A stretch of DNA of 64,000 bases from Rhizophagus irregularis (taxonomy: Eukaryota). Every line of letters begins with the position of its first letter. The first letter of the stretch is position 1. The notes under the pieces are model-generated. The model worked only from the letters and a program-made list of their open reading frames with translations. It made no database searches and was not told where the DNA came from. The translations under genes and the position numbers were made by a program. Of the stretch, positions 9,260 to 56,297 are shown piece after piece. The stretch lies in the NCBI RefSeq assembly GCF_026210795.1, contig NC_089430.1, forward strand, positions 620,001 to 684,000, given 5' to 3'.

Positions 9260-10753
9260 TCATTTTAAAAACGAATTTTTAGTAATACCATTAATTTTCT
9301 TATGGTCTTTCCATTTAATATTACGAGCTTTCCATAGTTGTTCATAAATATTATGATGTAAATCAACTAAAAATGAAAGGAGTATATGTTTGATTAATTT
9401 TTTGTGAATTTTTGCGTCTTTGAACGGTAATAAGAGACAATCCGGGACTAGATTAATCAGGAGGCAATGTAATTCTGGTGCATCATAAATTGAATTGATA
9501 GGGGAATTGAAAGAAGTAAATATAGGAATATCAAAGTCGATATTGTTAATATTGATCTTTTCTTTATCCATGTTATTAATAATATATGATCGAAATTTTC
9601 TGTTCATGGTTTCTGAATATGGATTTCAAAATATCTATCGACTTTGGGCAAGTCCAAAAATGTTCATTAGATTCTGCAGCAGAGGAACATAAAAAACATG
9701 TGTCGTATCCATTAAGGATATCTGGATAATTCCGATTGAGAGCGTCCAACGTAGGTAAAGTATAATTTGAACATTTGATACGCCAACCAACATGTTTACT
9801 ATACGATTCACTTGTTACTTTTTGAAAGGGGTTATGATTGATCCATAATTGTGAAAACTCCCAGTTGATGATATGATTAATGGTGAATGATTTGAGTGCT
9901 TGCAAGGGTTTGAGTGAAATGTGACGTTCTAAGTTACGGAAGTTAATCAGTTTCTTTAATGTTTTCCTAATATTACGATCAATGATAGTATCATTGTTAA
10001 ACATGATATAACCTTTTTGTGCTTTGACGCCCTTTGGTGAAATTGAAATTATCCTATTGGAATCACATCCGTCTTTGGCCAATTTATCAGCTTTATCGTT
10101 ATATTCTACTCCTGAATGTGCCCTAACTTTCGTGAATTGTACCTGTAAATTCAATTCAATTATGATTTGTTGGACTGCCTGCCAGAGAATAATATTATTA
10201 ATCTTTTGCTTTCGTCTTGGTGTTAGCTTATAATTCAATAACGATGTGAAAGTATCGATTGTACATTGGCTATCTGTAAAAATATTAATTAAACTATTAG
10301 GTGGACAAACTATAAGACATGTTAATACTGCCATAATTTCAGCTCTAGTAGAACTGGGCCATTGTGTAGTTACACCAGAAAATTCTATATTTAAACTAGT
10401 ATCCGAAGTAAATATCCACCCAAAACCCATACGAGGATTATTATCATCTATTTTTAAAGAACCATCAGTATAAAATTCTAGATTTGTGAAAGAAGCTAAA
10501 TTATTAATTAAAATATAAAATTCATTAAAAATATCATTAGGTAATAATAAACCATTCACTAATCTATGATTAATGTTAGAAGGGATATATAAACGAGGGG
10601 TAATTGATTGTGAAGTAATAATTCTATTTCTAAATGAGGGGTCTGTTCTAATTTTGAAATCTTTAAAAGTGTCTGCGCGTAATTCACTGTCAGACTTATG
10701 TACAATAAAAATATTATTAAATCGATTATTATCTTTTTTATGTATATTAACGT
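9260..10753 (-). pseudogene. LINE ORF2 C-terminal half: RNase H and Cys/His finger, frameshifted
   Basis: FYTDGS...RAEIMAV...IFTDSQ...KVRAHSG...NDKADKLAK (RNase HI motifs); CFLC...ESNEHFWTC finger. Confidence 0.85.
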
Positions 10754-11301
10754 TGTTACCCCTAGTCACGTGTAGAGTTACAATTTACTACGCCAGAAGA
10801 TCATGTGGAAAATTAGGATCTACTGTGCCCAACTGTGCCAAGCCGACCTAGCCGCAGCCTATTTAGCCTATTATTTTTATTATATTTATTATATTAATTA
10901 TATTTAATATAATCGATATAATTATTTTATTTATTATATTTAATTTATTTATTATATTTATTATATTAGTTATATTTATTATATTAGTTATATTTCTTAT
11001 ATTTATTATATCTATTATATTTATTATATCTTTATATGTAGTAACTTTTATATAAATAACGTTGGTATTTTCCTTCGTTAAAAAGATAGTTCCTTCAGTT
11101 CGAATTAGTTTATCTTTAGTTCCATAATTCTTATTCTTGTAATTATAAAGTTCTATAATAAAGTATAACCTTTTACACTATAAACGAACTCCCTATTTTA
11201 AGCGTGTCTTGTTTGATTGGATTTCAGTCATAGTTAAACGTACTTAATCTCCCTGACTGCAAATCATAGTTAATCTATTCAACGTACCTAATCGGTTAAC
11301 A
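10754..11301 (+). repeat. 5' LTR
   Basis: TGTTACCCCTAG...CGGTTAACA; near-identical to 19746-20293 (2 differences seen by eye). Confidence 0.95.
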
Positions 11302-11574: not shown

Positions 11575-14500
11575 ATGCTCTTTTACAATTTATCTAAAGC
11601 AGAATTAAAGTCACATCAAAGAAAACATCGTAGAGGAAGAACAATCAACCAAAAAGAAGTTTACTGTATTCAGTGTTATCCAACAGATTCTATTCCAGCT
11701 GACAATATCCCTGACGGATTTGAGAAATTTTGGCTCTGGATTTCTATTCAGTACACAGCAAAACAATATACTGGAGCAACAGTAGCCGCTTTTAAAGTAT
11801 TAAAAACTGAATTCTTTATAACTACACAACTCAATACACTTGTCGGTATAACTACTAAGATCCTACAAAGTATAAAGTTTCGACAAATAAATACTTCTTT
11901 ATTAGAATTATCTTTTTATTTACATAAATTATTTGAATTAACAAACGGATTCAAGAGTTTACCAACCAATACTCAAGTGACCAACGCATATCAAATTTTT
12001 CATAATATACCAGTAAATAATAACACCAACATGAATGAAGGTCAGATGAAAGATCTTATGAAGTTAGTTTGGGGAACTGACCCAACTGATAATAATAACC
12101 CCAGAAATGTTGGAAACCTCTTGGAAAATACTTTGAATAATAATACAACTGCCATTACTACTGCGTTACAAAATAATCTTAATGCCCTCAATGCTCTTAC
12201 AACTGCCAACCAAAATCGTACAACATCTAAAGTTGTAGATGTTCCCTTTTTCTATGGGCGTGATGATGAAGATCCATACGAATGGTGTCGACTCTTTGAA
12301 GCTGCCTTTGCAGCTAATGGATGGCCAGATAATCGAAAAATTGCTTTAGCCGCTGGATTTCTTAAGGAAGCTGCCCGAGATTGGTATGAAGAGGATAGAG
12401 GAAATATCAACCAATGGCATGTAGATGACAATGCAAATAACTTTGATACCCGACTTATAAACTACTTTGCAACTGCTGCTCGAAGGAATCAGTGGACCAG
12501 AGAACTGCAAAATATTAAACAAGGAGACAATGAATCAGTAGAAAACTACTCCCGACATTTTAAGAAGTTGTTAAATAAAGCTACTCAAGGAGAAGCTTTA
12601 GCTGCAAGATACCAAATTAACTACTATATTAATGGTCTCAAGTCCTTTTTAGTTGGACAGGTAGTAATTGGAAATACTAATACTTTGGAAGCAACCATTA
12701 CCCGAGCCAAGTTAGTAGAATTAGGTGTAAATACTACTCTTTTAACTACAACACCTGTAACTACTAGTACTACAGAACCTATTCCAACTACTACTACTGT
12801 TAAACCAACTCCACAAGTGGATGAAATGGAAGCATTAACAAAACAAATGCAACAACTCGCTCTTAATTATGCAAATCTTTCATCAGTTTTAATGGTTCAA
12901 CAAAGCACTCCTCGAAATACTAGACCTAGACCTAATAATAATAACAATCAAAATCGTCAAAATGGTCAAGCCCCTACTCAGAATTCCTTTAATCCAAATA
13001 TCACTTGTTTCAGGTGTGGAAATGTAGGTCATATTTCCAGAAACTGCCAAATGGGAAGATATACCAATAATGGAAATATTAATAATAATAATAATAATCG
13101 CCCTCGCCAAAGAGCACCAGTTACACCTATTAATTATGCAGATGATGAAGCAGAAATTTACTATGATGAATATGAGAATGAATATGAGGAAGAATGGGAG
13201 GAAGAAGACGAATATGAAGCATATGTCACAACTCGTTCTAGATCTGTTCCATATGAGATATCCTCTCCTAGAGGAAAAAGAACAAGATTTTCAGAATCTC
13301 AAAAGGAAGACCAATTACGTACCCAACCTATTCCCCCAGTAACTCCTTCTACACCCATGGAAATGGATGCTACAGCAGAACCTTCTACAAAAAGAAAAGT
13401 AAGAACCAAAATGGTCCCTGCGCCTATTGAAAATGTCAATGAATTTGATATAGCTAAATATATTAGTGACCTTCCTTGTGGTCTATCTATCGGTCAAGCA
13501 ACAGCCCAACTTCCTGTTTACAGGAAAGGATTAATTCAAAGTATGAGGAGAAAGCGTGAAAAGATTGATAACAATAATTATATTGGAGAAAGTTACTATG
13601 GAGACTCCAACTCAGAAGAAGAAACTCCCACTACCGCTGCTAAATGTGAATTTCATATTAACCAACAACCAGTTATTGCAGTAATTGATAGTGGAGCTGC
13701 AGTTAGTATTATGACTACTGCCATGATGAAAACTTTGAAATTAACTATCGATGGACCTTCAGAATATGTAATTAAAACTGCCAATGGAACTAGAGTTAGG
13801 TCATTGGGAAAAATCCAAAACTTACCCCTAAAAGTCAGAAATTTAATTATTAAAACCAATGTTCAAATCATAGAATCAAGCGATAGTGTTTTTATTCTAG
13901 GAAATAACTGGATGAGAAAGGTAAATGCTGCTCTTGACTGGGACAAGAAGACACTAACTATCAGATACAATGGACGATCCACAACAGTCCCTGTGATTTT
14001 TACTCTCCCAAAACCTATTAAAATGAAGCAATCATTTGAGTATGATGACGAAGAAGAATATGAGTCTGAAGAGTTAGAAGAAGCTCAAATCTATATATCT
14101 GATTTTTCTGGTTATTCAACAGAAGAATCCCTTGAATTTAACCCATGGGAAAATGAAGTATCTCCTGCCCACCAAAATAATGAAGATGAAGAATTGGAAG
14201 AATCAAATCCTGCCATTTATTTAGCTCAAGCAGAAGTATATAGTGGAGAAAAAGTCAATCCAGACTTACATTTAGGACCGTTAGACTACCATCAACAAAG
14301 CCAATTTCAACAACTCTTGAGTGACTATGCAGATATTTGTGCTAAAAGCCAAACAGAAATTGGAAAAACAAATGTAATTAAGCACAAAATTATTACAAAA
14401 GATGCTACTCCCATCTTTCAACCACCCTACAGATGTAATCCTAAATATAGAGAGTTTTTACAAGGAGAAATCACAAGAATGGAAAGTCAAGGTCTTATAC

Positions 14501-16560
14501 GAAAATCAGCCAGCCCTTGGGCTTCACCTGTGGTAATTGTTGATAAAAAAGGAGGAGAAAAACGTTTATGCATAGACTATCGTAAATTGAATGCTGTCAC
14601 CAAAGCAGATGCTTACCCATTGCCTCGAATTGATGATATGCTTGAATCTTTTAGTAATGCAACATGGTTTACCACATTAGATTTAGCCAGTGGTTATTGG
14701 CAAGTAGCTATGGATTCAGCAGATGTTGAAAAGACTGCTTTTATTACTCCATTTGGACTATATGAATTTTTAGTAATGCCCTTTGGTTTAGCTTATGCGC
14801 CTGGAACTTTTCAATGACTAATGAATAGAATACTCCAGGAGTATCTAGGAAAGTTTGTGGCAGTATACTTAGATGATGTAATCATTTACTCAAAAGGAAC
14901 CTTAGAACAGCACTTGGATCACCTTAGACAAGTATTTGAAACTCTTAGACGAGCAAATTTGAAAATTAAACTTAAGAAATGTTACTTCTGTCTTGGAAAT
15001 ATTCATTTCCTAGGACATGTAGTCGGACGAGAAGGTATCCGGCCTGATCCAGAAAAAATTGAGAAAATTAAAACTTTTCCGGTTCCAACAAATCTAACAC
15101 AACTTCGCTCAGCATTAGGCTTATTCTCTTACTATCGAAAGTTCATCAAAGATTTCTCAAAAATAGCCAAACCAATGTTATTACTTTTAAAGAAGGAAAC
15201 TCCTTTTCATTGGACTGAGAAACAGCAAACTGCATTTGATTATTTGAAGGAAAGATTAGCTAAATCCCCGATCTTAACATACCCTGACTTTGAACAACCC
15301 TTCATTATTCATACAGACGCATCTGGTACTGGACTTGGTGCTGTGTTATTACAAATAAGAGAAGATGGAAAAGAACATGTAGTCGCTTATACCAGCAGAT
15401 CTTTAAATAAGGCTGAATGCAATTACCCTATAACCGACCAAGAATGTCTTGCGATAGTGTGGGCTATCAAACATTTCCAACACTACTTAGGATTAAAACC
15501 TTTCACAATTGTTACTGACCATTCTGCTCTAAAATGGTTAAAGACATCCAAAATCCCAAAAGGCCGCCGTGCGAGATGGGTCATGGACCTTCAACAGTAT
15601 GACTTTAATATTAAGCATCGAGCGGGAAAAGCGAACGCAAATGCAGATGCATTATCTAGAATGTTTGAAGAAGATAGCCAAACTCTTAGTTGTTTCATGA
15701 TTTCTATCGAAAAAGAAGGACAAATTAATGCAAATGAAAGTTCTACTCCAGTACACGAAGAGTACGATGCAGATTCAGAAGATGATTATACTGATAGACC
15801 TGCTCAAAGAGCTATTGATTTGTTAAATCGTTGTGATAATCTAATATATGATATGCAAAGCTACATTGAAGAACGATCTGAAAATAACTCTCCTATTAAT
15901 ATTGTTTCAGGAATTCGATATGATTTTGACAACCCCAATGGACCTCATCCAGAAGATTGTATTTGTAAAGTTTGTCAACCTCCTCCAGCCCGTTCACCAT
16001 CACCATATAGTTGTTGTAACGAAATTATTTGTCAGTGTAATGAAGATAACTATTCGATTGATACAGAAGAATATAATAATTCGTGGGAAAGACAAATTTA
16101 TGGAGATGCATTCTCTGATTATTCAGAAGAAAATCAGATTAATATTGAAGAACATATCGCCTGGACCATGTGTGGTATGAACCGTCAAGCTCTAGAAAAT
16201 ATGTATTTGGAAAATATAAAAATTAAACAAGTAATCGCCGGTCAACAAATCAATCATGGTGGAAGTCGATGTACTATGGAATGTGATACAGAAAATCATC
16301 ACGTGTATACATATTGTACGATGTGCAAGAAGAATCTATTTTATGGAACTACTATGCACGACTGTATCATTGGATTCACTTTAGGAAAAATTAGGCCAGA
16401 TATGAATCCCAAATTCCTTATTAATAATCAATGGTGGAAAGAACCTCAAGCAGTACAACTTGAAAATAATATCAATTATCTTAAATATATCGAACGATTA
16501 ATGAATGATTTACCAGTTTACAAAGCATCTTTGGAACCTTTCATTGCCAATTTGGACTAA
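11575..16560 (+). pseudogene. Gag-protease-RT-RNase H polyprotein with one in-frame TGA (14815-14817) and a Cys-rich tail
   Basis: Gag core; CFRCGNVGHISRNC zinc knuckle; IDSGA protease; LDLASGYWQ, MPFGL and YLDD RT motifs; TDASG and TDHSAL RNase H. ORFs 11575 and 14821 are in the same frame. Confidence 0.92.
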
Positions 16561-16654
16561 AAGTCCACCTCTTTTACATATTATAATTAACAAAGTATCA
16601 AAGGGTGAAAGCGAAAGTGTCCGCATCGTGACGAGACAGCCTAAATTTTCAAAA

Positions 16655-17916
16655 ATGGATATTGAACATTACAATAACATATATAATTATTTAAAATATA
16701 ATCAATTACCTTTTACATTAAATAACCAACAACAACAACAAATTCAAAAACAATCAGTATATTTTATTATCAAAAATAATTTCATTTATAAAAAGGATAA
16801 AAAGAGACAAAATAATTTACTACGAGTAATTAGAAGACATGAATTGGAACCAGTTCTTTTTATGTTCCACAACGATCCTACTGCTGTGCATTTTTCAGTT
16901 GACACAATGTTTGACAAAATTCAATCAAGATATTATTGGCCACAAATGTACAATGACATCAGAGCTTATGTCATGTCATGTGACTCTTGTCAACGAAGAG
17001 GAAAACAAAAGACAAAGTTACCTTTACATCCTATTCCAGTAGAAAGTCCTTTCATCAAATAGGAATAGATTTTGTAGGACCTTTACCTATAACTAAAAAT
17101 GGAAACAAATATATAATTACAGCAATGAATTATTTAACAAAATGGCCAGAAGCACGACCTGTAAAAGAAGCTACTGCAGAACAAGCTGCACTTTTTATTT
17201 ATGAAGAAATAATTTGTCGACATGGATGTCCAGCAAAAATATTATCAGACCAAGGAACTCATTTTAGAAATCAAATAATTGAAAAATTAATGGAAAAATT
17301 TCAGATAAAACATTTATTTTCAACACCATACCACCCTCAAACAAATGGACTTGTAGAAAGATTTAATCGTACTTTATCAGAATCTTTAGCAAAATTATCA
17401 ACAGATCATATTGATAATTGGGATAATTATATTGCACCAATTTTATTTGCTTATCGTACTACAAAACATTCGACTACAAAAATCGCACCTTTCTTTTTAT
17501 TATATGGACGAGATGCTAAACTACCAACTGATTCATTAGAAAATAATGGAAATCCAACTTTAATAAATCACATAGAAAATTTAGTTGACCAACTACCTCA
17601 AGAAATCGAAATAGCTAAGACAAATATTGAAATATCTCAACAAAAACAAAAAGAACGACATGATAGAAAATTACGTCATCAAATAAAATTTTCTATTGGA
17701 GATAAAGTCTTATATTATGACGCAGCAAAAGAAAAGCAATGGACTGGAAAACTAAATCCAAAATGGAAAGGACCATACTATATTCATCAAGTTGGAGAAA
17801 AAGGAGCGTACAAATTACGAACTATAGATGGAAAAGTCTTACGAACTCCTGTAAATGGAAGTTTATTAAAATTGTATCACGATCGACAAAATTGGGAACC
17901 AATAATTGTAGTATAA
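16655..17916 (+). pseudogene. Gypsy integrase as a separate ORF, frameshifted near 17050
   Basis: H-H-CDSC zinc finger; IGIDFVGP, SDQG and NGLVERFN DDE core; WKGPY motif; ATG at 16655 after the pol stop. Confidence 0.9.
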
Positions 17917-21306: not shown

Positions 21307-24300
21307 AAATTTTAAGCTGTAATTTTTTGTTATCTTTAAGAACATTCCTGCTGAATATACACCTTGGTTTGTTGCAATATGTACAAAAAACAAAATCACG
21401 AACGCGATTATTATTAATTAGACCAGTTGGAATTGTTTCTTTTGAAGAATTGGATAAATTTGGCAAATGCTCCTTTGTTTCAGTTCCATATAAATCATTA
21501 AAATCTCTATAGTGTTATAAATCTAAAAATATTTTAAAATATTTTAGTTCATATATATAATTTAAAAATAGATCAATTTTTTTAAAGATATAAATGCAAT
21601 TCACTAAATATTTCTTTTGGTAATTGTATTGGCAAACAAAAGTTATATTCAAGTTCACCACATTTTTTTATCTAAAATTAATAATTTTTTAAAAAAAAAT
21701 TAGAATAAAATATTTAATAAATGAATAATAACTTTTATAAATTCAATTTGTACATACTTGAAAACTATATGTACGAATACAACAATGGGTTTTAATAAAG
21801 TCTTAAAGAATTCCATGCTTACTCAATGCATTTCTTAGTGAAGTTTCATGTAATTCTAAAGTTTCGTCTATCTTATAAATTTTCTATGATATTTAAAAAT
21901 AAATAAAATTAAAAATAATTTGTTAATATTTATCAAACCAAATATATTTATTATATTATTCATAAAACAATTCTTACTTCAAATAATTCATCAATTTGCA
22001 TTCTATAAGCAAGTTTATAGTGCTGAAAGCTTTTTTCATTAAGTGACAATCGGATAGTTCTCTCTTTTAATAAAGATTGCACCTCTTCAATAGATTTTTG
22101 CAATTGAATTGCTAACTGTTTATTTCCTTCAGCTGCCAAGCAAATTTCTTCTAATGTATTTTTACTTTTAAATATATCTTCTAAAATATCATCCATCTTA
22201 TCATGTTGCAGTGTTACTCCTTGTAATGCTAAATTTAATATTGACATTACACGCTCTGCAGGGTTCATCCAGCTATGGTATGGTGCAGTTCTAACACTAG
22301 CCAAAAAATCAAAATTACTACAAAGAAACAAACAAATTAATGAAATTTATACAGATCCAAATGTTACTCTATGATCAGGACCACCATCAGTGTATAAGTA
22401 TTACCTACATTTGCATAATCGTGTAAATGGTGCCGATTAGGAGATAATAAAAGCATTTCAGGTAAATTTTCTTGATGTTGCTTTTTAATATTATTATAAA
22501 TTTCAGTGGCATGTTGTATTGCTGTACTTGGTTGAAAAGTTGTATCTTTATATGATACATAAACTTGTCCATGATAAAAAGATTCATTAATACTTTCTGG
22601 TATATCTATGAATAATGTTACTGATGGTGTTAAAGATAGTTTCGTATAATCATGATCAGATGATGTTAAATCCACATTTTGTGGCACAAGTGATTTTTTA
22701 TTACGAACTCCAGTTGAAGTTGCAATTCCTTCTCCAATTGCTATTTTATGTTTGTCATCTGCACAGATAAATGAAGTATATTTTCGAAATTTAATTGAAA
22801 ATAATCTCATGTATTGAAAAAGTGCTGCACAATAGTGTGCATCTGGATGGAATTTTGATAGTTGCCGTGTTTGTATTTTATATTTTATATTGAATCTTCC
22901 AGTATATTGTGAAGCAGTTTGTGTAGCAGGATTCTTTGGCCAGAATTGAAGTCGGATATATTCATCAGATGGTATACATATTTCTGAATTTAATGGAGCA
23001 CCATATTTTGATTCTAATTTTTGTATAATTATTTTTTTGAGATCGGATATAGACATTGCAATAGGCAAATATAAAACAGAACTGGCCCGTCTATAACAGG
23101 GCGGACATCCTTATATCACCTTGCCGATCATTTGCCGATCTTATAGTAAATTGGGTGATATCAGACTTTAAAACTTCGGCCAAAGTCACAGAAGTTTGGC
23201 CGAAGCTTGAAACTTTTATGGGTTATAGTTTAACTGATTTAAAATCAATGGCCGAAGTAATCATTCCTAATTTTAGGTAATCAAGAAGTTATGGCTAAAT
23301 TTATACTTGCAATTATATTTGTTATAATCTATATAATAAATAGAAATTTTCAAAATGCAATTTCTCAATCAATTTGGCGTAAAAAATTATAAAATTACTA
23401 TCAAAATGTTTGTCTTGACGAGATGAATCTAAAAAGCTATAAAACATTAAATTTTAATCACTGGTTGTCACAATATCATTAAAATAATTTCAATTTTCTA
23501 ATTATTATTAAAATTCTGCCCATTTTTGGGTTTTAGTTAATTTTTGGATTTGAAAACATTAATTTTCGGACTTTGGATAAATTTTGATAACAAATAAAAT
23601 TTATATAGTTAAATTTGCAAAAAAATAGTATTTTTTATGTGATAATATTTAAAATAGATGATCGGCAAAATGATCGGCAATAATGTGATAATATGAGGAT
23701 GTCCGCCCTGTTCCCGTCTATCATGTACAGCTGGAACTATCTAGTATATAAAATTAATAAATTAATACAAATGACATCAATATTAAATAAACAAAAAATA
23801 AATTATTATTATTATTATCATTATTATTTTACCTCATTAAAATAATTGTTCATTTCATCCCAAAAAATATCAAATTTTGTGCCTTTGAATCCATTATTTA
23901 TAATTTACTCTTAAATCTAAGATAATTTCTGGATCTTGTAAATCCAATACAGTTTGGATCCGATCTTGCATTTCTTTTGTTAATTCATTTGATGATGATG
24001 ACGAATCTCCAGACAAATCTTGTAATAATTTATTCCAAATTAATGGCGTTAACTTTGCAATTAAGCTGTACTATAAAAGTAAAATAAAAATTAGGTTATA
24101 TAATTTTATAACTGAATTAAATTAAAAGCTTTCTTATACTAACCTTTTCAATTACATTTTTCTTCATTTGTCTTGTAAAGAATATTGGTACCATTTCATT
24201 TGCTAATAAAATTAATTGAGACTCTTTAGTTTTACTTCTATCATCAAAATATGGTAATTTCCAAATAAAATTTAAAGTTCCTAAATAGTTCCCATGATAA

Positions 24301-25456
24301 TACCGATATAAAGTAAATGCAGAATCAACTTCCAAATTTAAAATAAAATCGTAACGTGCTCGCTTATCATCAGAAAGATAAGTATCAAGTGATATTAATT
24401 CATAATAATCAGAATTGTGAAGTATTGAAGAAATATCATCATATTTCTTATCAAAGCTTTCTTTCTTTTCACGTATTTCTATCAAAATATTATCAATTTT
24501 GTTGCGTATAAAATCTACACTCAAATGATTTTCTTTAACACTCTGATTTACTTCTTCTAAATACTTTATATACTTTCTTGCATTATGACATAAATCAAGT
24601 ACTGAAAAGACAAATTGTTTCCATCTTTCTGCACTAGCCCATGGTTGAGATACACATGATTCAACTTCTTTAACATATCCATCTAACTTTACCACAGATA
24701 ATTGTTCTTTTTTATGCTTTCCAGTAAAATAAAATCTGTTATAATTGGAATTAATTTTATATTCTGGTAAATTTAAAATTATGTTTGGCAAATTACATCC
24801 ACGATCTTTTAATTTTGCATGATGTGGGTCAAGATACCATAGTAAATCAATAATTAAACAATTAATAAATTTGTCTCCAAATGTTTCGTGCATACCTCTG
24901 GTCCATCCTAGTGAATTTTGTTGTAAAATCCATAATATATCATTAAATAAAAAGTCCCGTCTTGTTGATGATTTATGTGCTACTGGAAGACAATATCTTT
25001 GACTATTCACCATTAATATTGGCAAAGGATTAACATGTGGTACTAAATCAGGTTCAATGTCTTCCAAATCTTCCAAAATATATTTAACTTGACATGGTTC
25101 AAAATTTTTACAAAATGATAATTTCATATCAAGTTTTCTAATATTGGCCCAATGTTTTGTTATTGGGTTGTAGAATTGTACAGATATTCTCCGATCATTA
25201 ACTGTATAACCCGTACTTCACTCAGCAAGTCTTCAAAATTTTTATTTTCTTCAATATCTATGGCATCATCTTGTAACAATTTATTGTGCTTATAAATGGC
25301 AACAATGAAATACATTATGATGACAGAAATAGAGTTAGAGTTAACGATAAAAAAAAGATTAAAATATAGGTCAGATCGTGTGGTACATGATCCAATTTTA
25401 TCATATCTGTGCGAGGTGCGTTGCTTGGTTAAAACTATCAAATCATATACAGTCAT
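21307..25456 (-). pseudogene. Intron-containing DDE transposase (Zator/TP36-like), disrupted
   Basis: Motifs CADDKHK, YTDGGPDH and TAPYHSWMNPAERVMS; GT-AG introns; stops and frameshifts; MITE insertion. The 5' boundary is approximate. Confidence 0.75.
23095..23712. mobile_element. MITE with 9-bp TSD (Mutator-like) inserted in a transposase exon
   Basis: TIR AACAGGGCGGACATCCT / AGGATGTCCGCCCTGTT; TSD CCCGTCTAT (23086-23094, 23713-23721). Removing it restores VPAVHDRRASSVLYLPIAMS. Confidence 0.9.
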
Positions 25457-26453
25457 GTGACATATATTATGTTTATTTAAATCTGAAATTTTTCAAAAAA
25501 AGAGGGGGGAGGACGTTAAACTAATTATTAATTTGGAGCGGCCTAATTAATAACTTAATGTCTAAAATTTTATTTGCATATTTTTACAGGATTTTCAATA
25601 TCAGGTGTCAATTATGCATACTACTGTGCCGTACTACTCATATAAAAAGTCTCTGCGTATAGCTCATAGTAAAAAAATTTTTCGCCACCTGACCCCTATA
25701 TATATTTCTGGATCCTAATGCACCATTTGCAAGAAAATTGGAATATTTGACAAAAAAAAAAGCAAAATTTGATTTTAATTGACAATGTTATAACAATGTT
25801 GTGAAATGTTACAATAATATTACATTTGAGGTGTAAAGTAGCATTTTCCCAAATTTTCATAAAATTTGCTAAATTGGATAATGTTGTAACAATGCTATTC
25901 CAAAAAATTGCTCAGCGTAATGCAGCATTTTCCATAATTTCCTACCATTTTTCAGGAAAATGTGAAATTTGCATTTTTTGAAATTTGGACAAGGTGCTCC
26001 TTTGACCTGTGAGATATTGCAAAAATCAAATGTGATGATTTATATATATTTAATAATTAAATAAGTTACAAAAAAAAAGAATTATTCAAATTACAAACTA
26101 AAAAACTTGTAAAATATTCTACTACTTTAACCTTAGTGTTTAAATAATTCTAATAAAAATAAAGAGAATTTGAATATTTAATAATTTATAAGAAATAAGA
26201 ATCATTTAAATTACAAACTAAGAAATTTGTAAAATATTTTACTACTCTAACTTTAGTGTTTAAATAATTCTAATAAAAAAAAAATATACATATAAAAAAA
26301 ATTTGTTAAATGAACAATAACATCAAATCATATCATTTAAAAAAAAAGTTTTTAAAAATAATTCAAATTAAATCTTTTTCATTATCTGAATAATTAAAAA
26401 AAAAAAATTAATTTCATATAAAATTATTTGCAAAATTATTTTATTTTTCTATA

Positions 26454-29400
26454 TTACATACCTTCATTAATAATGATACAATCTCTCAAACTTCCGCTTT
26501 CTTGAATTTCATTCACTTTTCCACTAGTAGAATGACTTAAATAATATACATGTGTATCTTCATTTTCAAGAATTTTATTCAATTCTTTACTAGTAAAACT
26601 AAGTAAGCGACTTGTATGGCATACTTGTGGATGAGATTCGGTAATTAAATTGTTACATTGAATTGATGCATTTATAAATTCCATAATATTGCTTTTTAAT
26701 TCTTCATTTATATCACTTATATCACTGATTTCAGGATTAAAAATCCAATTTTTAATGATATTTTTAACTTTTAATGCAGATGGCCTTTCTAATGGATCTT
26801 CATTCCAACATTTTTTCATTAAATCTATATAGCATTGTGGAGTATTTTCAATAATTTCAGGACGTTCACCTTTACAAATACTTAAACTAAGTTGAATATC
26901 ATCATATTTTCTGTCACTAAATGGTGGAACTCCAGATGTAAATTCCCACATAATCATAGAAAAACTATATATATCACTAGCTGGAGTATATGATTTACCT
27001 CTTAAAATTTCAGGTGCCATAAATGGTATAACACCATAAATACTATCTTTGTTTAAAAATGATTCCAAAGGTTGACATAATCCTAAATCACTAATATAAA
27101 TTTCATCATCTTTATTTTCATCATCTTTTAAATTATTTTTATACTTATTATGTTTTAAAATATTACCATCATGAAAATCACAATGAATAAGATTTTGTTC
27201 ATGTATTTTATGAAGTCCAGAAATAATTTTATATAATATATATAATCTCTGTTTCCAATTATTTTTAATTATTTTTGTTAAATTTTCTCTTAAATTGCCT
27301 TTATTTGCATAATCCATTATTGCCATATATTTCGAATCTGGATTTCTTGTAAATCCGTACAAGTTAATAATTTCAGTTGAATCTAAACAACTTTCATGAT
27401 ATTTCCACTATATAAAAAGTTAAAAGATTATTAAAATAAATTTATATAAATAAATTATAATTTAAGTTTAAAAAAAAAAATAAATAAAATGTTATAAATA
27501 ATATATATCTTACTTCTTTTAAAAATTTACTTAAATTTTCATTTAAATCTTTGGGACATTTAAGAACTACTTCCATATCACCGTTTTCTTTTAACCAAAT
27601 AGCTTTATAAACACTACCAAATCCTCCTTCATTAAGATATTCAACATCCTTAAATTTTTTATAAGGAATCCATTTTAATTTTTTTTCTAAAATAAAATTA
27701 TCCATAATTATATTTCCACTTTTTCCAAATCTAAATAATTTTAAATAATTAAAATTCATTAAAAAATTACGTTGAAATCGTTGAAATATTAAATTTTAAA
27801 AAAAATAACATTAACACTTACCCTAAAATTTAATAAGAAATTTTAATAAATGATAAATTTTAATTTATTTTTTACATAAATAGTAACGTAATAATAACCA
27901 AAATTTGTAACTTACTAACTAAAGTAAATAAACAAATATAAAGAATTTAGTTAATTAAAATTATTTGTGAATATTAAATACAGTAAATATACAAGGATAG
28001 CAATATCTAATAACTTACAACCTAAATTAAATTAGAATCTAGTTAGTTTAAATTATATGCAAATATCACATAAATATATAATAATAAAATTACTTGTTAC
28101 TTACAAAAATCTAAATAAATTATCAATCAATTTTTTTTAATTAATTTAAATATATATTGAATATAATAACAAAATTGAATAAATAATTTATTACAACTTA
28201 CGCTCTACATTATTAAATAACAAATTTAGTTTAAATTATATGTGAATATGATATAAATACGTAATAATAGAATTAATAAACAACTTACTTCCTATATTAC
28301 CAAATAATTTATAAATAAAGAATTTAGTATAAATTATATTTAAACATCAATTAATCATATAATGACAGAATTAAATTAAGTAACTTACGAACTATATTAT
28401 TAAATAAAGAATTTAGTTAGTTTAAATAATACATACATATGCATAACAATACAATCAAATAGAATAGTTTATATAACTTACAATCTAAAATTATTAACGA
28501 TTATTTTTAAATAAAGGATTTAATCAATAAATCATATACAGTCATCATATAAACAATGTAATAACATAATTTATAACTTACAATCTATAAATAAAGAATC
28601 AAATTAGTTTAAATTATATATAAACATTACATAAATATATAATAATAGGATTACTCACTTTCTATATTTTTGAATAATTTTTTAAACGAAAAATTTAGTT
28701 AATTTAAATTATATGTAAATATGAATTAAATAAATAAATTATAACTTACCATCTATTAAATGACGAATTTAATTTTTTTTTTTCGAATTATTTGTAAGTA
28801 TTTTATAAAGAAAATAACTACATTTAACCGTGAGGAAAATTAACCGGTGGGCAGAATTACACAATTCCAAGTCAACTCATTACCAGCATTAACATTAATT
28901 CCTTCATTTACCGGTTAATTTTCCCCCTGGCTAAGATCCTTATATAAATATGTGATAGACAAATTACCTTCTAGATTATTGATTTTTTTTTTTAAAAAAA
29001 AAAATTTAGATTAAATCATATGTAACAGGTATTATATAAATACATAGAATAAAATAACTTACTCTCTATATTATTAGCAATATTTAAATAAAGAATTCAG
29101 TTAATTTTAGTTAGTTTAAATAATATTATATAAATGTCAAAATAAAATTAAATAAATAACTTATAACTTACTAACTAAAATAAACAAATAGTATTTTTTC
29201 AAATAGAAAATATAGTTAAATTAAATACAAATGCTATACATGTAATAGAATAAATAAATAACTTCTAACTTACCAACTAAAACATGTAATAATTTGCGAA
29301 AAATTTAATTAGTTTATATTATATGAGAATGCAATAAAATATATAATGGTAGAATAAAATAAATAACTCACTCTCTAGTATATTATTAAATAGTTTTTCA

Positions 29401-32400
29401 AAGTAAAGAAGTCAGTTTAATTTATAGTATGTATTATAAATATACAAATACAAATAACTCACGTGCTGTATTATTAAAGAACAAATAATTTAGTTAGTTT
29501 AAATTATATAAATATCATATGTAATAATAGAAATAAATAACTTACAATCTAAATAAATTGTCAGATATTTTAATAAAGAATTTGTTAGTTAACATAAATT
29601 TAAATGTTATGCAAACGTATAATAATACTATCGATAAATAAGCAACTTACTCCCTATATTATTAAATATTTTTTTTTAAATAAAAAATTTAGTTAGTTTA
29701 AATTATGTATGTGTAAATATCAAATAATATATAATAATAAAATCAAATAAATAATTATTACTTACGCACTATATTACAATTTTTTAAATAAAAAGTTTTA
29801 AATATATTAGTGAATATTATATAATAATAGAATAAATAATTAACTTATAACTTACAAACTAATACAAGTAAATTGTTCAAATAATTTTTATAATAAAGAA
29901 TTTCGTTAATTTAAATTATTTGTAGATATATAAATAGAATTAAATAAATAACTTGTCACTTACGTGCTATATATTAAATATTTTTAGATAATTTTAGTTA
30001 GTTTAAGTTACGTATAAATTATGGTAAAAAATAAAAATAAAAATAACATACGTGCTTATTATAAAAATAATTTTTAATAAAAAATTTAGTTAATTTAAAT
30101 TCATATAAAAAGTATGCAATAATAGAATTTAATAAAGTAACTTACGATCTATATTATTATAATAAAGAATTTAGTTTAATTTAAATTATATATGATAGTA
30201 TTAATGGTATGATAATAGAATTAAATAAATGATTTATAACTTACCATCTAAAAGAAATTGCCAAATAATTTTTTAATAAAGAATTCAATTAATTCAAATT
30301 AAATATTTGTAAATAATAATAGAATTAAATAAATAACTCACTCTCTATTATTAAAAAATTGAAAAGTTAATTTAAATTATTTACAAGTATTATATAATTG
30401 CATTATAATGTAATAATTAAATAAATAATTTATAACTTACCAACTAAAATATTAATTTTTTAAATAAAGAATTTGATTATTTAACTGAAATTATACGTAA
30501 ATATTATTTAAATACATAACGATAGAATAACTTACTCTCTATATTATTAAAATAAAAATTTAGTTTATAATTAATTTAAATAATCACGTAAATATTTTAT
30601 ATAAATGTATAATGGTAAATTAAATAAATGACTTATAACTTACCAGCTATAATAAATTTCCAGATAATTTGTTAAATAAAGAATTTCGTTAGTTTAAAAT
30701 ATATAATATATGAATATATGTAAAATTTCATATAAATATAATAGAATTAAATTAATAACTTGCCAACTATAATAAAATTACAAAGTGATTATTTTAAATA
30801 AGAATTTCGTTAGCTTATATTATATACAAATATTCTATAATGAAATTAAATAACTTACTTCCTATATTATTAACCGTTTTTAGAAAGAATTTAGTTAGTT
30901 TAAAATATATGTAAATATCATATATCATAAAGTCCGCCCTTTTTGCACATAATGCTAGCCAAGAACATCGTAATGTAGCCCAAAATTGCGAACTTTATGA
31001 TAGATCTGTAATAATCAAATCAAATAAATAACTTACTCCCTGTATATTATTAAATGATTTTTAAATAAGGAATTTAGTTCAAATTATATAAATATTATAT
31101 AAATATGCAATAATAGGAATAAATAAATGACTTATAACTTACAATCTAAAATAAATTACCAAAGTTAGTTTAAATTATTGTAAATAGTGTATAAATATAT
31201 ATGTATGATAGAATTAAATAAATAACTTACCAACTATAATAAACCACCAAATAATTTTTAGACGGAAAATTTAGTTAATTTATTAAATTACAATATTAAA
31301 TATATATTTAAAATAATAAAATTAAATAAATAACACATATTTAACTTACGTCCTAAGAAAATTACCAATATTTATTTGTGATTAGTTTAATTATATTAGA
31401 TATCATATAAATAAGTAGTAATAAAATAAAATAAACAACTCACTTGCTAAATCATTAAACCGTTTTTTAAAAAATATTATAAATTTTTGTAATAAGGGCA
31501 GCGTAATATATTACGTAACGCCCGTAATCCAACAACAAATTTCGGGTGATATCAGCGTAAGATAGGTAACCAATTAAAATATAATATAATTATATATCAC
31601 ATGATTTTATTATGTGTCCAATTCTCGTAATAAATGTCAATGTTCCTAATAAAATTAAATAAATGACATATAACTTACATGCTATATTATTTTTTAATAA
31701 TAATAGTTAGTTCAAATTATATATGAAGCGTAATAATGGAATTAAATAAATAACTATAACTTACTATCTAAAATAAATTACCAATTAATTTTTTTTTAAA
31801 TAAAAAAAAATTCAATTAGTTTAAATAATATGTATATATCATATATAAATATACAATTGATAGAATTAAATAACTTGAAATAAACTCACTTTCTACATTA
31901 TTAATAATTTTTTAAATAAAAAAATTTAGTTAATTTAAATCACATGTAAATATTTCATAAATATGTAATGGTAGAATTAAATAAATAACTTACCAACTAA
32001 AAAAAATTATGTAAAATAAAAAAATTAATTAGTTAAAGTTATATGTGAATATTATATAAATATATGATAATAAAATTAAATAAATAATTTATTACGTACC
32101 AACTATATAAATAAATTACCAAATAATTTTTTTTTTAAATTAAATATTTTTTTTTCTTTTAGTATATTAAAATATTTAATAAATAAAATTAAATAAATAA
32201 CTTACATGCTATATTATTAAAATAAAGAAATAATTAGCTTAAATAATGTCGTTAAATATGTAATAATGGAATTAAATAAATGACTTATTACTTACACGCT
32301 ATATTATTAAATATTTTTTATATAAAGAATTTAATTAGTTTAAATATTATATAAATATTTTATAATAATATTAAATAAATAAGTAGAATAACTCACTCTC

Positions 32401-33203
32401 TATATTATTAAAATAAAGAATTTAGTTAGTTTAAATTTATATGTAAATATCTTAATAAACATGTACTAATAGAATTAAATAAATAACTTGCAACTTACCA
32501 ACTAAAATAAATTACCAATAAATTTTTCATTTTTTTCTAGTTAGTTTAAGTTATATACAACTTAAAGACATAGATAACATATAACTTACACCCTGTAATA
32601 TTATTATTAATTAGATAAAAACATTATTACAAAAATACATGATGTAAAAAAAATTAATTATATTACTTACAATCTAATTATTTAAATAAAGAATAAAATG
32701 ATTAGTTTTGAAATATGCGCAAAAATTAAATAAATAATAAAATTAAATAACTTACCATCTATAACATCATTAATGAATGAATAATTATTTAAACAAAGAA
32801 TTTTGTTATTTGAATATTATGCAAAAAATATGGTAAAAAAATAAATAACTGATAATTACTTACTAACTAAAGTATTATTAATCATGATTTAGTTATTTAG
32901 AATATGATAAAGATAAGTAATTTTCAATTATTATTCGAATTATATTAACTTACGATCTAATTATTTAAATGATTATTAAATTAGAAATAATTCAAATTTA
33001 TATGTGAATATTACGTAAGGTAAAATAATATGAAAATTGTTTAAAAAATTATTTCAATATTTTATTTACCTTCAGATTCCTTGGTACTGGTACTTGAAAC
33101 TAGTTTTGGTATTTATTACAAATTCGTTTCAAAATTTAGAATATTCTAATTTAAATTAAATATTCATGCTATTTCTTTTACCTTCATCGTTACCATTAGC
33201 CAT
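26454..33203 (-). CDS. TKL-like protein kinase with 54 predicted exons (50 micro-exons of 1-6 nt), ~457 aa
   Basis: Exons 33182-33203, 33070-33099, 50 micro-exons (32956 down to 27822), 27514-27730 and 26454-27407 total 1374 nt with no internal stop. Kinase motifs EGGFGSVYKA, VVLK, HCDFHDGN, SDLG, MAPE, SDIYSF. The kinase exons are high confidence; micro-exon inclusion is predicted. Confidence 0.8.
28824..28934. mobile_element. ~110-bp MITE inside a micro-exon intron
   Basis: TTAACCGTGAGGAAAATTAACCGGT ... ACCGGTTAATTTTCCCCCTGGCTAA imperfect TIRs. Confidence 0.7.
30925..31000. mobile_element. 76-bp hairpin MITE inside a micro-exon intron
   Basis: TA|TCATAAAGTCCGC ... GCGAACTTTATGA|TA. Confidence 0.65.
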
Positions 33204-34215
33204 TATAATAATTATGTTTGAAATTCTTCCTAAAGAGACGGTGTATAATATATTCTTTATTAAATACCTTTATTAATGTGGGTATATATACAGGATAACC
33301 ATACAGAATGCAAAATGCAGACGCCAAGTAGGTAATCGGTTTCAGAACAATAAGGACGTATTGTATGCATTATGTGCAATTATGTCGATCACAAGCCACG
33401 ACAAACAAGTTTTTTTTTTCTTAAAAATGATGATCAAAATATTCTTTGAAGAAAAGCCGATTAAAAAAAAATTTACTATGAAACTACATACTGTTATTTT
33501 TTATTCGCAAAAGTAACGGTAACACACATTTCAGATTTGTCAACCATCTTAACTGCAAAAATTTCATGATAATCTGAACCGAGTGAGGCGAAAGTCCAGA
33601 TTACGTTGTAATATAGGTTTAGTTAATATCAATAATTTAACGTAAGAAATAAACTTTTTAAAGGTAATTTTCTTGAGTTTGCTTTAGATGAGAAGAAAAT
33701 ATAACTTCTTTACTATAATTATTAAATATTAAAAGATCAATCAAGCGATAACGTTGATCACTTTCTAAGAAAATTTCGAATGATAAACGCTATTGTACAT
33801 ATATATTTTATTTTGGCCGCATATTGATTCTTTAAAAGAAGACGGTATCCGTTAAAGTTCGTCACGTTTACTTTCTCAGGGTCTTTTTTATTATCAGTGT
33901 CACAAAGAAAAGGAATAATTGAAAGGATTTTTTAAAACATATAGAAAATCATTGTTTAAATTTGAATGTTAAAAATTTCTTCAATGTGATAGTCCTAAGA
34001 ATTAACTATGGAAAAATTTTGCATAATAATTCAAAATCAAATAGTCTTGTTAATTTAGTTATGTTAATATGAAATCAATTTAATAAATTGATAAAGTGAA
34101 CAAATTAATTTATGACTTATGTAATATGTAATTGTTATTTGTTGCTGACTTAGCCAAGTTTTTTAAAAAACTTGTTGTCACCTGATCACCACGTTGAGGT
34201 GCAGCAACATTGATC

Positions 34216-34935
34216 AGGGGGGAAGGGGAAAGCGAAAGGAAAAAGGGAAACGGAAGGGAAAGGTAGGAAAGGGTAAACGAAGGGAAGGGTAAGACGAAGG
34301 GGAAAGGTAAGACGAAGGGGAAAGGGTAAAACGAAGGGGAAAGGGTAAGACGAAGGGAAAGGGTAAGACGAAGAGAAAGGGTAAGACGAAGAGAAAGGGT
34401 AAGACGAAAGGGAAGGATAAAACGAAGGGGAAAGGGTAAAACGAAGGGGAAGGGTAAAACGAAGTGGAAAGGGTAAAACGAAGGGGAAGGGTAAAACGAA
34501 GTGGAAAGGGTAAAACGAAGGGGAAGGGTAAAACGAAGGGGAAGGGTAAAACGAAGGGGAAGGGTAATACGAAGGGGAAAGGGTAAGACGAAGACGAAGG
34601 GGAAAGGGTAAGACGAAGGGAAAGGGTAAAACGAAGGGGAAAGGGTAAAACGAAGGGGAAAGGGTAAAACGAAGGGGAAAGGGTAAGACGAAGGGGAAAG
34701 GGTAAACGAAGGGACGAAGGGGAGGGTAAGACGAAGGGGAAAGGGTAAGACGAAGGGAAAGGGTAAGACGAAAGGGAAGGATAAAACGAAGGGGAAAGGG
34801 TAAGACGAAGGGGAAAAGGTAAGACGAAGGGAAAGGGTAAGACGAAAGGGAAGGATAAAACGAAGGGGAAAGGGTAAAACGAAGGGGAAAGGGTAACGAA
34901 GGGGAAAGAGAAAGCGAGAGAAGGGAAGGGGAAAG
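34216..34935 (+). repeat. Purine-rich minisatellite, ~18-19-bp unit GGGGAAAGGGTAA(A/G)ACGAA, roughly 35 copies
   Basis: Directly visible tandem repeat; it generates the overlapping F/P/L/S/Y-rich ORFs on the minus strand. Confidence 0.95.
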
Positions 34936-41900: not shown

Positions 41901-42712
41901 GAAAAGAATAGAAAAAAAAAGTTCATGGTTTCATTGTTTTAAAAAATGAAAGATCTGCAGATAAACCATCGTAATACAAAAGTATACAACTGATACGTTA
42001 TACGTTACCGCAGTTCATGAAAAAAATCTCACAAAACAAGTTTTTTTTTTTTTACAATAAAAACAATATTTCGTATTCTTATCTCTTTTCTTATCTTTTT
42101 TTTCATTTAACCCAATTTGTTCTTTTTATTTAAATGTTTACAGGAGAAAAAAAATTGTTTCAAGATTGATAAAAATTTCTTGATATATTCAAAATCATGT
42201 TTTTTAATTATTAATTCGTGATTATTCTTTATTATTTGTAATCCTGTAAATATATTATATGATAATATAATAGTGATCTAATTTATGATTTATATAATTT
42301 TCTCACGTATATGCGTAATGCGTTACATGCATTTCAATGCGTTATATTAAAGTTTTTTGAATGATGATGAATTATTATTATTGTTTATTATTATTATTAT
42401 TATTTTGATATTTACAGTAATCTCCAAAATAAGGAAATTGAATAAAAGTGCATGTCAATCAATCAATTTATAGTTCATTCATCGTTTATCAATTTTCTTC
42501 AAAGATAATCTTTACCGAATATATAAACGTTAAAATATTACTTATAAAATTAATAATGATGAAAATAGTTATAAATAGGCCTTACAAAAGACCAAGGGTT
42601 TTTTTTTTTCCTCAAAAACAATAAAAAAATATTAAAAATAATTAACTTTTGATCATATTAAAAACAATACAAAAAAAAACAAAACAATCCCCAAATTTTT
42701 TTAATAAACGTA

Positions 42713-43357
42713 ATGGAATCAGTCTCATTTTCATCGGATCATACTTCTTATGATTGTTGTATTTATCAGTATAATCAATATCAACAACATCAACAATACC
42801 AATTATACCAACATTGCCAACAATATCAATTAAATCAACATTATCAACAACCTCAACCCCAACCCCAACTTCAATACCCTCAGCATCCTCAACATCAACT
42901 GCCTCAACAACCCCAACAACTTCAACAACTTCAACAATTTCAACAATTTCAACAACCTCAACAATTTCAACAATTTCAACTACCCCAACAATTTCAACAA
43001 TTTCAACAAGAGCCTCAACAAGAGCCTCAACAACCTCAATATGTTCCTCAACAACCTCAACAGCCTCAATATGCTCCTCAACAACCTCAACAACCTCAAT
43101 ATGCTCCTCAACAACAACAACATTATCAACAACAACAACAACAACAACAACAACTACTATTCCAACATCTTACCTCCAGCACTATGACAACAACGGTAAT
43201 TACAAATGACGGCAATCGGTACGATCTGGAGGCCGTATCGATCACTAATGGAGTGGCTAATTCAGCAGCCACAATATTAAATAATCAAGAAAATGTGAAT
43301 ACCGTTTATGTAAACGGTATTCTATATAATCACTTTCATTTTATTACCTTTTTTTAA
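42713..43357 (+). CDS. Gln/Pro-rich low-complexity hypothetical protein (214 aa)
   Basis: Single ORF with non-repetitive termini; CAA repeats vary in codon frame; TATAAATA near 42570. Confidence 0.5.
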   Translation: MESVSFSSDHTSYDCCIYQYNQYQQHQQYQLYQHCQQYQLNQHYQQPQPQPQLQYPQHPQHQLPQQPQQLQQLQQFQQFQQPQQFQQFQLPQQFQQFQQEPQQEPQQPQYVPQQPQQPQYAPQQPQQPQYAPQQQQHYQQQQQQQQQLLFQHLTSSTMTTTVITNDGNRYDLEAVSITNGVANSAATILNNQENVNTVYVNGILYNHFHFITFF

Positions 43358-56136: not shown

Positions 56137-56297
56137 TTTGAAAATTTAGGAAGGAAAGAAAGTTTTTTTACGGAGTATCGGAGTAAATAAGTCATTATAA
56201 GCCTAATTTTGGATATCACACGGTTGTACATAAATTTTGTAACATTCAAGTGAACCCTGTAATAGGTAACACTACCTGCTACCGTAATGATTTTCTC

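What the first reader, a model, noticed from the sequence alone, without database searches (positions are those of the whole stretch)
27822..33203. Kinase N-terminus spelled about one codon at a time by 50 micro-exons (48 are 3 nt)
Seen: 5.1 kb with no ORFs contains 50 minus-strand AG|exon|GT cassettes (one GC donor). In transcript order (lowest coordinate, exon): 32954 ATC, 32864 TTA, 32756 ATG, 32671 ATT, 32590 GGT, 32499 TTG, 32397 AGA, 32296 CGT, 32206 CAT, 32100 TTG, 31994 TTG, 31890 AAA, 31765 ATA, 31679 CAT, 31444 CAA, 31350 GAC, 31231 TTG, 31143 ATT, 31037 GGA, 30859 GAA, 30764 TTG, 30644 CTG, 30536 AGA, 30441 TTG, 30342 AGA, 30245 ATG, 30146 ATC, 30052 CAC, 29964 CAC, 29856 TTT, 29766 TGC, 29651 GGA, 29546 ATT, 29463 CAC, 29372 AGA, 29274 TTG, 29172 TTA, 29063 AGA, 28968 AAG, 28750 ATG, 28659 AAA, 28582 ATT, 28482 ATT, 28389 TTC, 28289 GAA, 28202 AGC, 28105 ATTTTT, 28019 GTT, 27916 TTA, 27822 G. 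Joined after exons 1-2 they read MANGNDEVSSTSTKESE-DLNDWFETSFVENTSRLDWRIAEIENDPPLLRNSQIVKKDENYFRKHFCFR-FGKSGN..., in frame with the kinase. Established: micro-exon genes exist (Schistosoma MEGs, exons mostly 6 nt or longer), and TKL-like kinases are expanded in Glomeromycotina. Inference: this is a real gene architecture that gene finders and spliced aligners would miss. I do not know of a described array of dozens of consecutive 3-nt exons.
Basis: partly seen in the sequence, partly recalled or inferred. Interest (0 to 1): 0.97.

Follow-up and report, generated by a model that had tools for sequence, protein, structure and literature searches.

The report
Kinase spelled one codon per exon
In front of a protein kinase gene of a root-symbiotic (arbuscular mycorrhizal) fungus lie 50 tiny exon-like pieces, 48 of them only three bases long, which are likely spliced together to build about 50 amino acids at the protein's front end, a layout that database gene models of this kinase lack and that recurs, with fast-changing triplets, before related kinases.

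Summary
Confirmed: 50 of 50 cassettes lie at the stated coordinates. The gene is a Rhizophagus kinase. The array is a tandem expansion of a ~95-nt intron plus 3 nt with every splice site intact. It is very likely coding: joined in phase 1 it is stop-free (shuffle P=0.014), and 21 other array loci show 0 stops at 164 junctions against 6.3 expected (P=0.0002), 27 in another phase. Two spliced, perfect-match contigs (one study) stop aligning at 27735, which only inclusion of the last micro-exons predicts; their upstream letters were not shown, so full 50-exon inclusion is inferred. Annotated paralogs carry wrong-frame stitchings of such arrays. Triplets differ far more than their introns; no selection for skip tolerance. 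New here: kinase N-termini, Glomeromycotina, split codons, RNA support. Verdict: real; new variant of a known kind.

The parts
33182..33203 (-). Coding part of exon 1 (start codon at 33201-33203), ends in phase 1
   Evidence: Sequence; similar N-termini in annotated paralogs P0004, P0049, P0077, P0085, P0117, P0124, P0136. Not covered by the RNA lay.
33070..33099 (-). Exon 2 (30 nt, phase 1 to phase 1)
   Evidence: Sequence; similar Ser/Glu/Lys-rich segments in paralogs P0031, P0097, P0117, P0124. Not covered by the RNA lay.
27822..32956 (-). Array of 50 micro-exons (48 x 3 nt, one 6 nt at 28105-28110, one 1 nt at 27822), 151 nt, predicted to encode residues 18-68; lowest coordinates as listed in the finding
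   Evidence: 50 of 50 verified; open in phase 1; phase likelihood best for exon start at codon position 2 (-188 vs -207 and -202); 31 of 50 lie in the stretch laid with RNA.
27731..33069 (-). 51 short AT-rich introns that separate exon 2, the micro-exons and the kinase exon; related to each other, with donor, branch-like motif and acceptor
   Evidence: Donors: 39 GTAAGT, 7 GTGAGT, 5 others; acceptors 47 TAG, 3 CAG, 1 AAG; branch-like motif 15-60 nt from the 3' end in 46 of 51; median pairwise z 2.9 over shuffles, best 15.7; TRF periods 91 and 196.
28753..28967 (-). Long intron (215 nt) with an unrelated insert; the same insert is used as a false exon in database protein P0121 of another strain
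   Evidence: Two more long introns: 30862-31036 and 31447-31678.
27514..27730 (-). First kinase exon (217 nt, starts in phase 2): glycine loop and catalytic lysine; holds the internal ATG (27703-27705) where database models start
   Evidence: RNA-type contigs cover it without mismatch.
26462..27407 (-). Second kinase exon (946 nt): rest of the kinase domain and tail
   Evidence: Pfam PF00069 E 2.7e-32, PF07714 E 1.2e-31; intron 27408-27513 spliced in 4 of 4 runs.
26363..26385 (-). Last coding exon with stop codon
   Evidence: Joint 26385-26462 in 4 of 4 runs (1 read only in X22); same C-terminus as P0003.

Best explanation
This is an expressed Rhizophagus protein kinase gene with 50 intact micro-exon cassettes before its kinase exons, which are likely all spliced together so that 151 bases, each codon split across two exons, encode a predicted 51-residue N-terminal segment. 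Shown: the cassettes, their intact splice signals, the open phase-1 frame here and in other arrays, splicing of the kinase introns, and a transcript end point that needs at least the last two or three micro-exons. Inferred: the array grew by tandem duplication of an intron plus 3 nt inside a phase-1 intron position (a 3-nt step keeps the frame, so copies are tolerated); the short introns are each recognised across the intron (intron definition) and removed one after another, because a 3-nt exon cannot hold two spliceosomes; the full-inclusion product is the selected one; unequal exchange between look-alike introns adds, removes and reshuffles codons, which makes the segment in front of the kinase domain hypervariable between paralogs. 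The segment sits where other kinases of this fungal group carry a cysteine-pair region, so it is predicted to be a variable regulatory or binding arm.
For: Window: no stop in phase 1, 3.2 expected on shuffling exon order, P=0.014; skipping all 50 shifts the frame. 21 other loci, 188 units, 164 junctions: 0 stops in phase 1 vs 6.3 (P=0.0002), 27 in phase 2 vs 26.8. Exon before the array ends in phase 1 in 6 of 6 loci where it is present; kinase exon begins in phase 1 in 5 of 5. Middle base is never C in 48 of 48 window triplets, as for third codon positions of the kinase (C 4%). Contigs X1 record 6 and X3 record 17 match with 0 differences and stop at 27735, with 155 and 383 letters left over; 1 of 51 truncation models (full inclusion to exon 50) and 0 of 123 direct donors in 27760-33300 give that end; 1 of 872 donor-like sites further upstream does, a non-consensus GC site 10 kb away. 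An X1 contig of a paralog shows an array-type intron end, AG, 10 letters and the kinase exon, as a part-spliced product would (table 5c). Splice dinucleotides kept in 51 of 51 introns while interior consensus C positions are kept in about half. Triplets vs introns, identity: L085 0.41 vs 0.91, L108 0.36 vs 0.86, window 0.30 (background 0.29) vs 0.77 (shuffle 0.72). P0121 reproduces 24 of the triplets read as whole codons, and six more paralog models have such runs with 3 Pro/Thr/Ala in 209 residues against 10% in the kinase.
Against: The upstream letters of the two contigs were not printed, so only the last few micro-exons are directly implied; both contigs come from one study, the runs are RNA by guess, and only 24 of 413 pieces were listed. 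Skipping exon 48 alone, or retaining the intron before it, gives the same end point. The 383 leftover letters exceed the 198 needed to reach the start codon by 185, which may be a long 5' UTR or retained introns. No database protein among those whose N-termini were printed carries the predicted segment or a transcript-derived version of it. The window test alone is modest (P=0.014); the 21 loci were picked by eye from 109, come from 20 contigs, some are close relatives, and the caller misread 2 units in L108 and missed a few. 4 of 188 units elsewhere have lost the GT, and one array (L059) has no kinase behind it, so some arrays decay. Seven wrong-frame runs were picked by eye.
Confidence: 0.8

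Rival explanations
1. The array is a combinatorial alternative-splicing device like the truffle nank genes: each transcript includes a different subset of triplets, and isoform diversity, not the full product, is what is selected.
For: 3-nt exons keep the frame; simulated random skipping at 5-10% per exon leaves 74-57% of transcripts stop-free with thousands of peptides. Reported for nank (original not read). Part-spliced paralog contigs exist.
Against: Single skips make a stop in 6 of 48 cases, against 2.9 for stop-free shuffled orders (P of at least 6 = 0.03), so the order is not tuned for skipping. 46 of 51 donors are the two strongest hexamers. One contig runs 383 letters upstream without a break, which heavy isoform mixing would tend to fragment (inference). 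The same test on the pooled other arrays was not run.
Confidence: 0.12
2. The cassettes are spliced but form a non-coding 5' leader; the protein starts at the internal ATG as annotated.
For: Database models P0001, P0002, P0003, P0145 all start at the internal ATG; no protein with the predicted segment found.
Against: Stop avoidance specific to one phase in the window and 21 other loci, phase match at both ends, third-position-like middle base. Starting at the internal ATG would drop the conserved GKSGN stretch that 31 of the 40 hits cover in full. An in-frame ATG lies upstream in exon 1.
Confidence: 0.05
3. The region is a decaying minisatellite of an intron-like unit inside one long intron; the spliceosome ignores most copies.
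For: Units are related by duplication; some units in other contigs have lost donors.
Against: 51 of 51 introns keep both splice dinucleotides while interiors are near saturation (63% vs 58% shuffled); direct splicing of exon 2 predicts an end at 27732 and a frameshift, not the 27735 seen.
Confidence: 0.03

Closest known systems
[quoted passage not shown] 2012, doi 10.1016/j.funbio.2011.11.009; not held; known here only from citing passages in PMC4986451, PMC3689799, PMC13449251, PMC10197012)
   Same: Tens of 3-nt exons in members of an expanded fungal gene family; a variable segment joined to a signalling protein.
   Different: Here a kinase, not an NLR; Glomeromycotina, not an ascomycete; segment N-terminal to the catalytic domain; codons split across exons (phase 1; phase in nank not seen by me); no sign of selection for skipping, whereas nank diversity is ascribed to alternative splicing.
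Expanded tyrosine-kinase-like / Ser-Thr kinase family of Rhizophagus (PF07714, PF00069); 2,533 kinase genes in R. irregularis (PMC10234402, passage seen)
   Same: Kinase exons 95% identical to R. diaphanus RGB33904.1 and matching R. irregularis OCT59_011583.
   Different: Database models lack the array-encoded N-terminus or stitch it in the wrong frame; the word microexon does not occur in the main text of PMC10234402.
Schistosoma micro-exon genes (MEGs) (recalled, not read)
   Same: Many short frame-preserving exons in a row.
   Different: As recalled, MEG exons are mostly 6-36 nt and make up most of a secreted protein; here they are 3 nt and give 151 of 1,386 coding bases of an intracellular-type kinase.
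Recursive splicing at zero-length exons (recalled)
   Same: Back-to-back acceptor and donor signals, stepwise removal.
   Different: Every cassette here leaves 1-6 coding bases in the message.
Introner elements (recalled)
   Same: Families of similar introns made by copying.
   Different: Copies here are tandem with a 3-nt step in one gene region; dispersal over the genome could not be tested.

Membership tests
nank-type codon-sized microexon genes | Tens of 3-nt exons with splice sites | tested here: met
   48 of 50 are 3 nt, all with AG and GT/GC
nank-type codon-sized microexon genes | NACHT and ankyrin domains | tested here: not met
   Only kinase families hit the gene's large exons
nank-type codon-sized microexon genes | Extensive alternative splicing of the microexons | tested here: inconclusive
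   No isoform letters seen; order not tuned for skipping
Rhizophagus expanded kinase family | PF00069/PF07714 domain with glycine loop, lysine, catalytic Asp/Asn, DLG and APE motifs | tested here: met
Rhizophagus expanded kinase family | Closest relatives in Rhizophagus | tested here: met
   All named hits among the best 120 of 1,114 are Rhizophagus; 8 are unnamed JGI calls
Rhizophagus expanded kinase family | Catalytic activity | not testable with these tools
   Motifs only
Schistosoma MEG (features recalled) | Micro-exons form most of the coding sequence | tested here: not met
   151 of 1,386 coding bases
Schistosoma MEG (features recalled) | Signal peptide, secreted product | not tested
   No predictor run; N-terminus is polar by eye
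Recursive splicing ratchet points (features recalled) | Zero-length exons | tested here: not met
   0 of 50 cassettes are zero-length
Introner elements (features recalled) | Near-identical introns dispersed over many genes | not testable with these tools
   No genome held; within the window the pattern is confined to the array and the gene's three ordinary introns score 0.53-0.61 against it, at or near the shuffle level 0.58

The most novel reading that the evidence does not exclude
Arbuscular mycorrhizal fungi use codon-step intron arrays as a dedicated diversity generator for a large kinase subfamily: look-alike introns act as recombination handles that add, delete and swap single codon steps, while the three exon bases are under diversifying selection, giving each paralog, strain or nucleus its own 20-50 residue sensing arm for non-self recognition; hundreds of these genes would be mis-annotated in all current assemblies.
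Probability: 0.35. Interest if true: 0.92.

Novelty: new variant of a known kind. Interest (0 to 1): 0.8.

Why it matters
It is an extreme test case for splicing: 50 exons too short to be recognised as exons must be joined in order, in a model symbiont with public RNA data, so the order and fidelity of such splicing can be tested at once. It shows that part of the large kinase repertoire of these fungi is likely mis-annotated at the N-terminus, and gives a simple signature to find the cases (database N-termini made of Gly/Ile/Leu/Met/Val/Glu runs with almost no Pro/Thr/Ala). Triplets that change much faster than their introns point to a way of diversifying signalling proteins one codon at a time, which seems to have arisen more than once in fungi (truffle NLRs; unchecked scan notes on HET genes).

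Tried and rejected
The run search listed no holder on record as RNA (no evidence either way); RNA status of X1-X3 rests on spliced joints. RNA was laid on 26200-30900 only. Three homolog searches, a cluster look-up and a representatives search gave no transcript-derived protein with the array segment. Viral contigs as a control: 35 pattern hits, longest chain 5, none an array. Of 109 metagenome loci, most were satellites or chance; L093, L061, L116 had chains of 5 or more but are an identical repeat, a coding repeat and a satellite and were left out. Reading triplets as whole codons (phase 0) was rejected: it does not fit the phase of exon 2 or of the kinase exon and has the lowest likelihood. 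Simple block duplication of intron plus following exon leaves only a weak trace (Mantel r 0.13, P 0.001; 1.08 vs 0.90 identical bases of 3 for the 25 best intron pairs). A skip-one test on the pooled other arrays was not run. No fold or complex prediction was made. Paper searches without a relevant hit: microexon + Rhizophagus (3 papers), micro-exon + arbuscular mycorrhizal (4), Rhizophagus irregularis + kinase + short exons (0), Glomeromycotina with five exon terms (0); listings and abstract starts only.

Full report
Observation. All 50 of 50 cassettes are at the stated places on the minus strand, flanked by AG and GT (one GC). 48 are 3 nt, one is 6 nt, one is 1 nt. The 51 introns from exon 2 to the first kinase exon have median length 95 nt; 48 are 74-122 nt and three are longer through unrelated inserts. 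A strict two-unit pattern matches 15 times, all in the array, and never in 100 shuffles. The region is 13-18% GC against 21-37% for most of the window.

The gene. The downstream exons encode a kinase (PF00069, PF07714) with the usual motifs. Its best relatives are Rhizophagus proteins: 95% to R. diaphanus RGB33904.1, and R. irregularis OCT59_011583 matches both ends of the kinase part. These models start at an ATG eight codons into the first kinase exon. Both kinase introns are spliced in 4 of 4 runs laid, which fixes the last exon at 26363-26385 and a 462-aa product if all exons are used.

Are the cassettes coding? Exon 2 ends one base into a codon, so each triplet gives the last two bases of one codon and the first of the next; the final 1-nt exon brings the frame to the phase-2 start of the kinase exon. 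This frame has no stop; shuffling the order of the 48 triplets gives 3.2 stops on average and none in 1.4% of 100,000 shuffles; skipping the whole array shifts the frame. The middle base is never C (0 of 48), like third codon positions in the kinase, and a position model from the kinase exons favours this phase by 14 and 19 log units. Both splice dinucleotides are kept in 51 of 51 introns, whereas intron interiors are 63% alike against 58% for shuffles and interior consensus C positions survive in about half.

RNA. Laid on 26200-30900 (31 of the 50 micro-exons), two contigs with no mismatch, X1 record 6 and X3 record 17, align up to 27735, five bases beyond the acceptor at 27730, and have 155 and 383 further letters with no listed piece in this stretch (24 of 413 pieces listed; both from one study; RNA by guess, but X3 record 17 also spans the spliced kinase intron). 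The last micro-exons happen to share five bases with the intron end. Of 51 models that stop the array after exon k, only k=50 gives 27735; a direct join of exon 2 gives 27732; none of 123 donor-like sites in 27760-33300 gives it, and 1 of 872 further upstream, a poor GC site, does. Skipping exon 48 or retaining the intron before it would give the same end, so the result proves use of the last two or three micro-exons, not of all 50. A paralog contig shows an array-type intron end, AG, 10 letters and then the kinase exon, as expected of a part-spliced message, though a genomic exon extension is not excluded. In the raw poly(A) run X22, most of 2,442 laid reads are paralogs (121 at 99% or more); 75 have loose ends at 27730 whose consensus (agreement 0.63) differs from this gene and, read by eye, is open in the kinase frame.

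Other arrays. I took 21 AT-rich loci with array-type introns (20 contigs; chosen by eye). In 188 units and 164 junctions there are 0 stops in phase 1 against 6.3 on shuffling (P=0.0002) and 27 in phase 2 against 26.8 (the caller misread 2 units and missed a few; 4 units lack GT/GC). The exon before the array ends in phase 1 in 6 of 6 loci, and the kinase exon starts in phase 1 in 5 of 5. L037 holds a whole array of about 18 exons between a start exon and a kinase. These kinases are 46-53% identical to ours; for L044 the nearest named protein is from Funneliformis geosporum (65% over 59%), Rhizophagus 53-60%, so the layout spans more than one Glomeromycotina lineage. There the array sits just before the F..NF..WTSGN-type stretch, where other relatives carry cysteine pairs.

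Database proteins. P0121, a model of the same gene in another strain, contains 24 of our triplets read as whole codons, i.e. in the wrong frame. Six more paralog models have N-terminal runs with 3 Pro/Thr/Ala in 209 residues (all seven, picked by eye) against 10% in kinase domains, the mark of triplets without a middle C. Several paralogs share exons 1 and 2. This suggests many Rhizophagus kinases have arrays, but their DNA could not be fetched.

How it works (inferred). The introns descend from one unit (median z 2.9 over shuffles, best 15.7; periods 91 and 196). Copying an intron plus 3 nt keeps the frame, so the array can grow or shrink by unequal exchange. Short fungal introns are recognised across the intron, and adjacent introns 3 nt apart must be removed in turn (established knowledge, recalled). 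The triplets vary far more than the introns: 0.41 vs 0.91 identity in L085, 0.36 vs 0.86 in L108, 0.52 vs 0.93 in L120, background level in the window (11 arrays examined, exon identity lower in all). This fits diversifying selection on the exons or homogenisation of the introns; the data do not separate the two. Single skips create stops more often than in stop-free shuffled orders (6 vs 2.9), so I favour a constitutive full product with diversity between genes over nank-like isoform mixing.

Comparison with what is known. [quoted passage not shown] 2012, which is not held. So the kind is known, if little noticed: PMC11121469 opens by saying functional microexons had not been described in filamentous fungi (passage seen). 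This gene is not a nank gene (no NACHT or ankyrin). My searches found no report for Glomeromycotina or kinases, and the long-read annotation paper PMC10234402 has no occurrence of microexon in its main text (supplements not seen). The lead to nank came from an earlier scan note; other notes describe like arrays before HET genes and behind a kinase in other genomes, without RNA support in the lines shown (unchecked). None was found for this genome or protein.

Verdict. Real feature; coding, largely full-length splicing is about 80% likely; new variant of a known kind; interest 0.8.

Noticed in passing
L079, minus strand, whole 3,930-base contig: About 38 micro-exons, mostly 3 nt with some of 6 and 12 nt, separated by introns that are not alike (0.53 vs 0.52 shuffled); the first run is open in all three phases and hydrophobic in phase 0. 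An old array in another AT-rich eukaryote, no kinase hit.
   Followed up: partly
L069 1-1350, L140, L081 900-1370, L133: GC-rich (49-57%) tandem intron units of about 86-96 nt with a 3-nt step, branch-like CTCAC and varied triplets: a third, unrelated lineage with the same layout; host gene not identified.
   Followed up: partly
L111 plus strand 400-1183: An array with Glomeromycotina-type introns follows exons that look like tetratricopeptide repeats by eye, so arrays may also sit behind repeat domains.
   Followed up: no
L059, L108, L102, L121, L056: Arrays with lost donors or deleted triplets; L059 has no kinase behind its array. Birth and death of units.
   Followed up: partly
L091 minus strand 280-560: Five varied 3-nt cassettes between near-identical 53-nt introns, a shorter unit type.
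   Followed up: no
window 59025-59092, minus strand: Two isolated micro-cassettes (1 nt and 3 nt) 64 nt apart with good splice signals, after a possible short exon; no array.
   Followed up: partly
window 11575-17916, plus strand: Ty3/gypsy-type retrotransposon (gag, protease, RT, RNase H, integrase) interrupted by stops; further integrase piece at 63182-63895 and RNase H at 9576-10784.
   Followed up: partly
window 34222-34908: GC-richer 18/37-nt purine-rich tandem repeat about 1 kb upstream of the start codon.
   Followed up: no
window 42642-43357: Gln/Pro-rich repeat ORFs without Pfam match; other unannotated long ORFs at 24117-25217, 49248-50852, 54607-56145.
   Followed up: no
window 27822 and 27730: The 1-nt last exon makes up for a phase-2 start of the kinase exon; paralog models that read through the acceptor suggest a phase-1 start there, so the last intron may be a later gain inside one codon (inference).
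   Followed up: no
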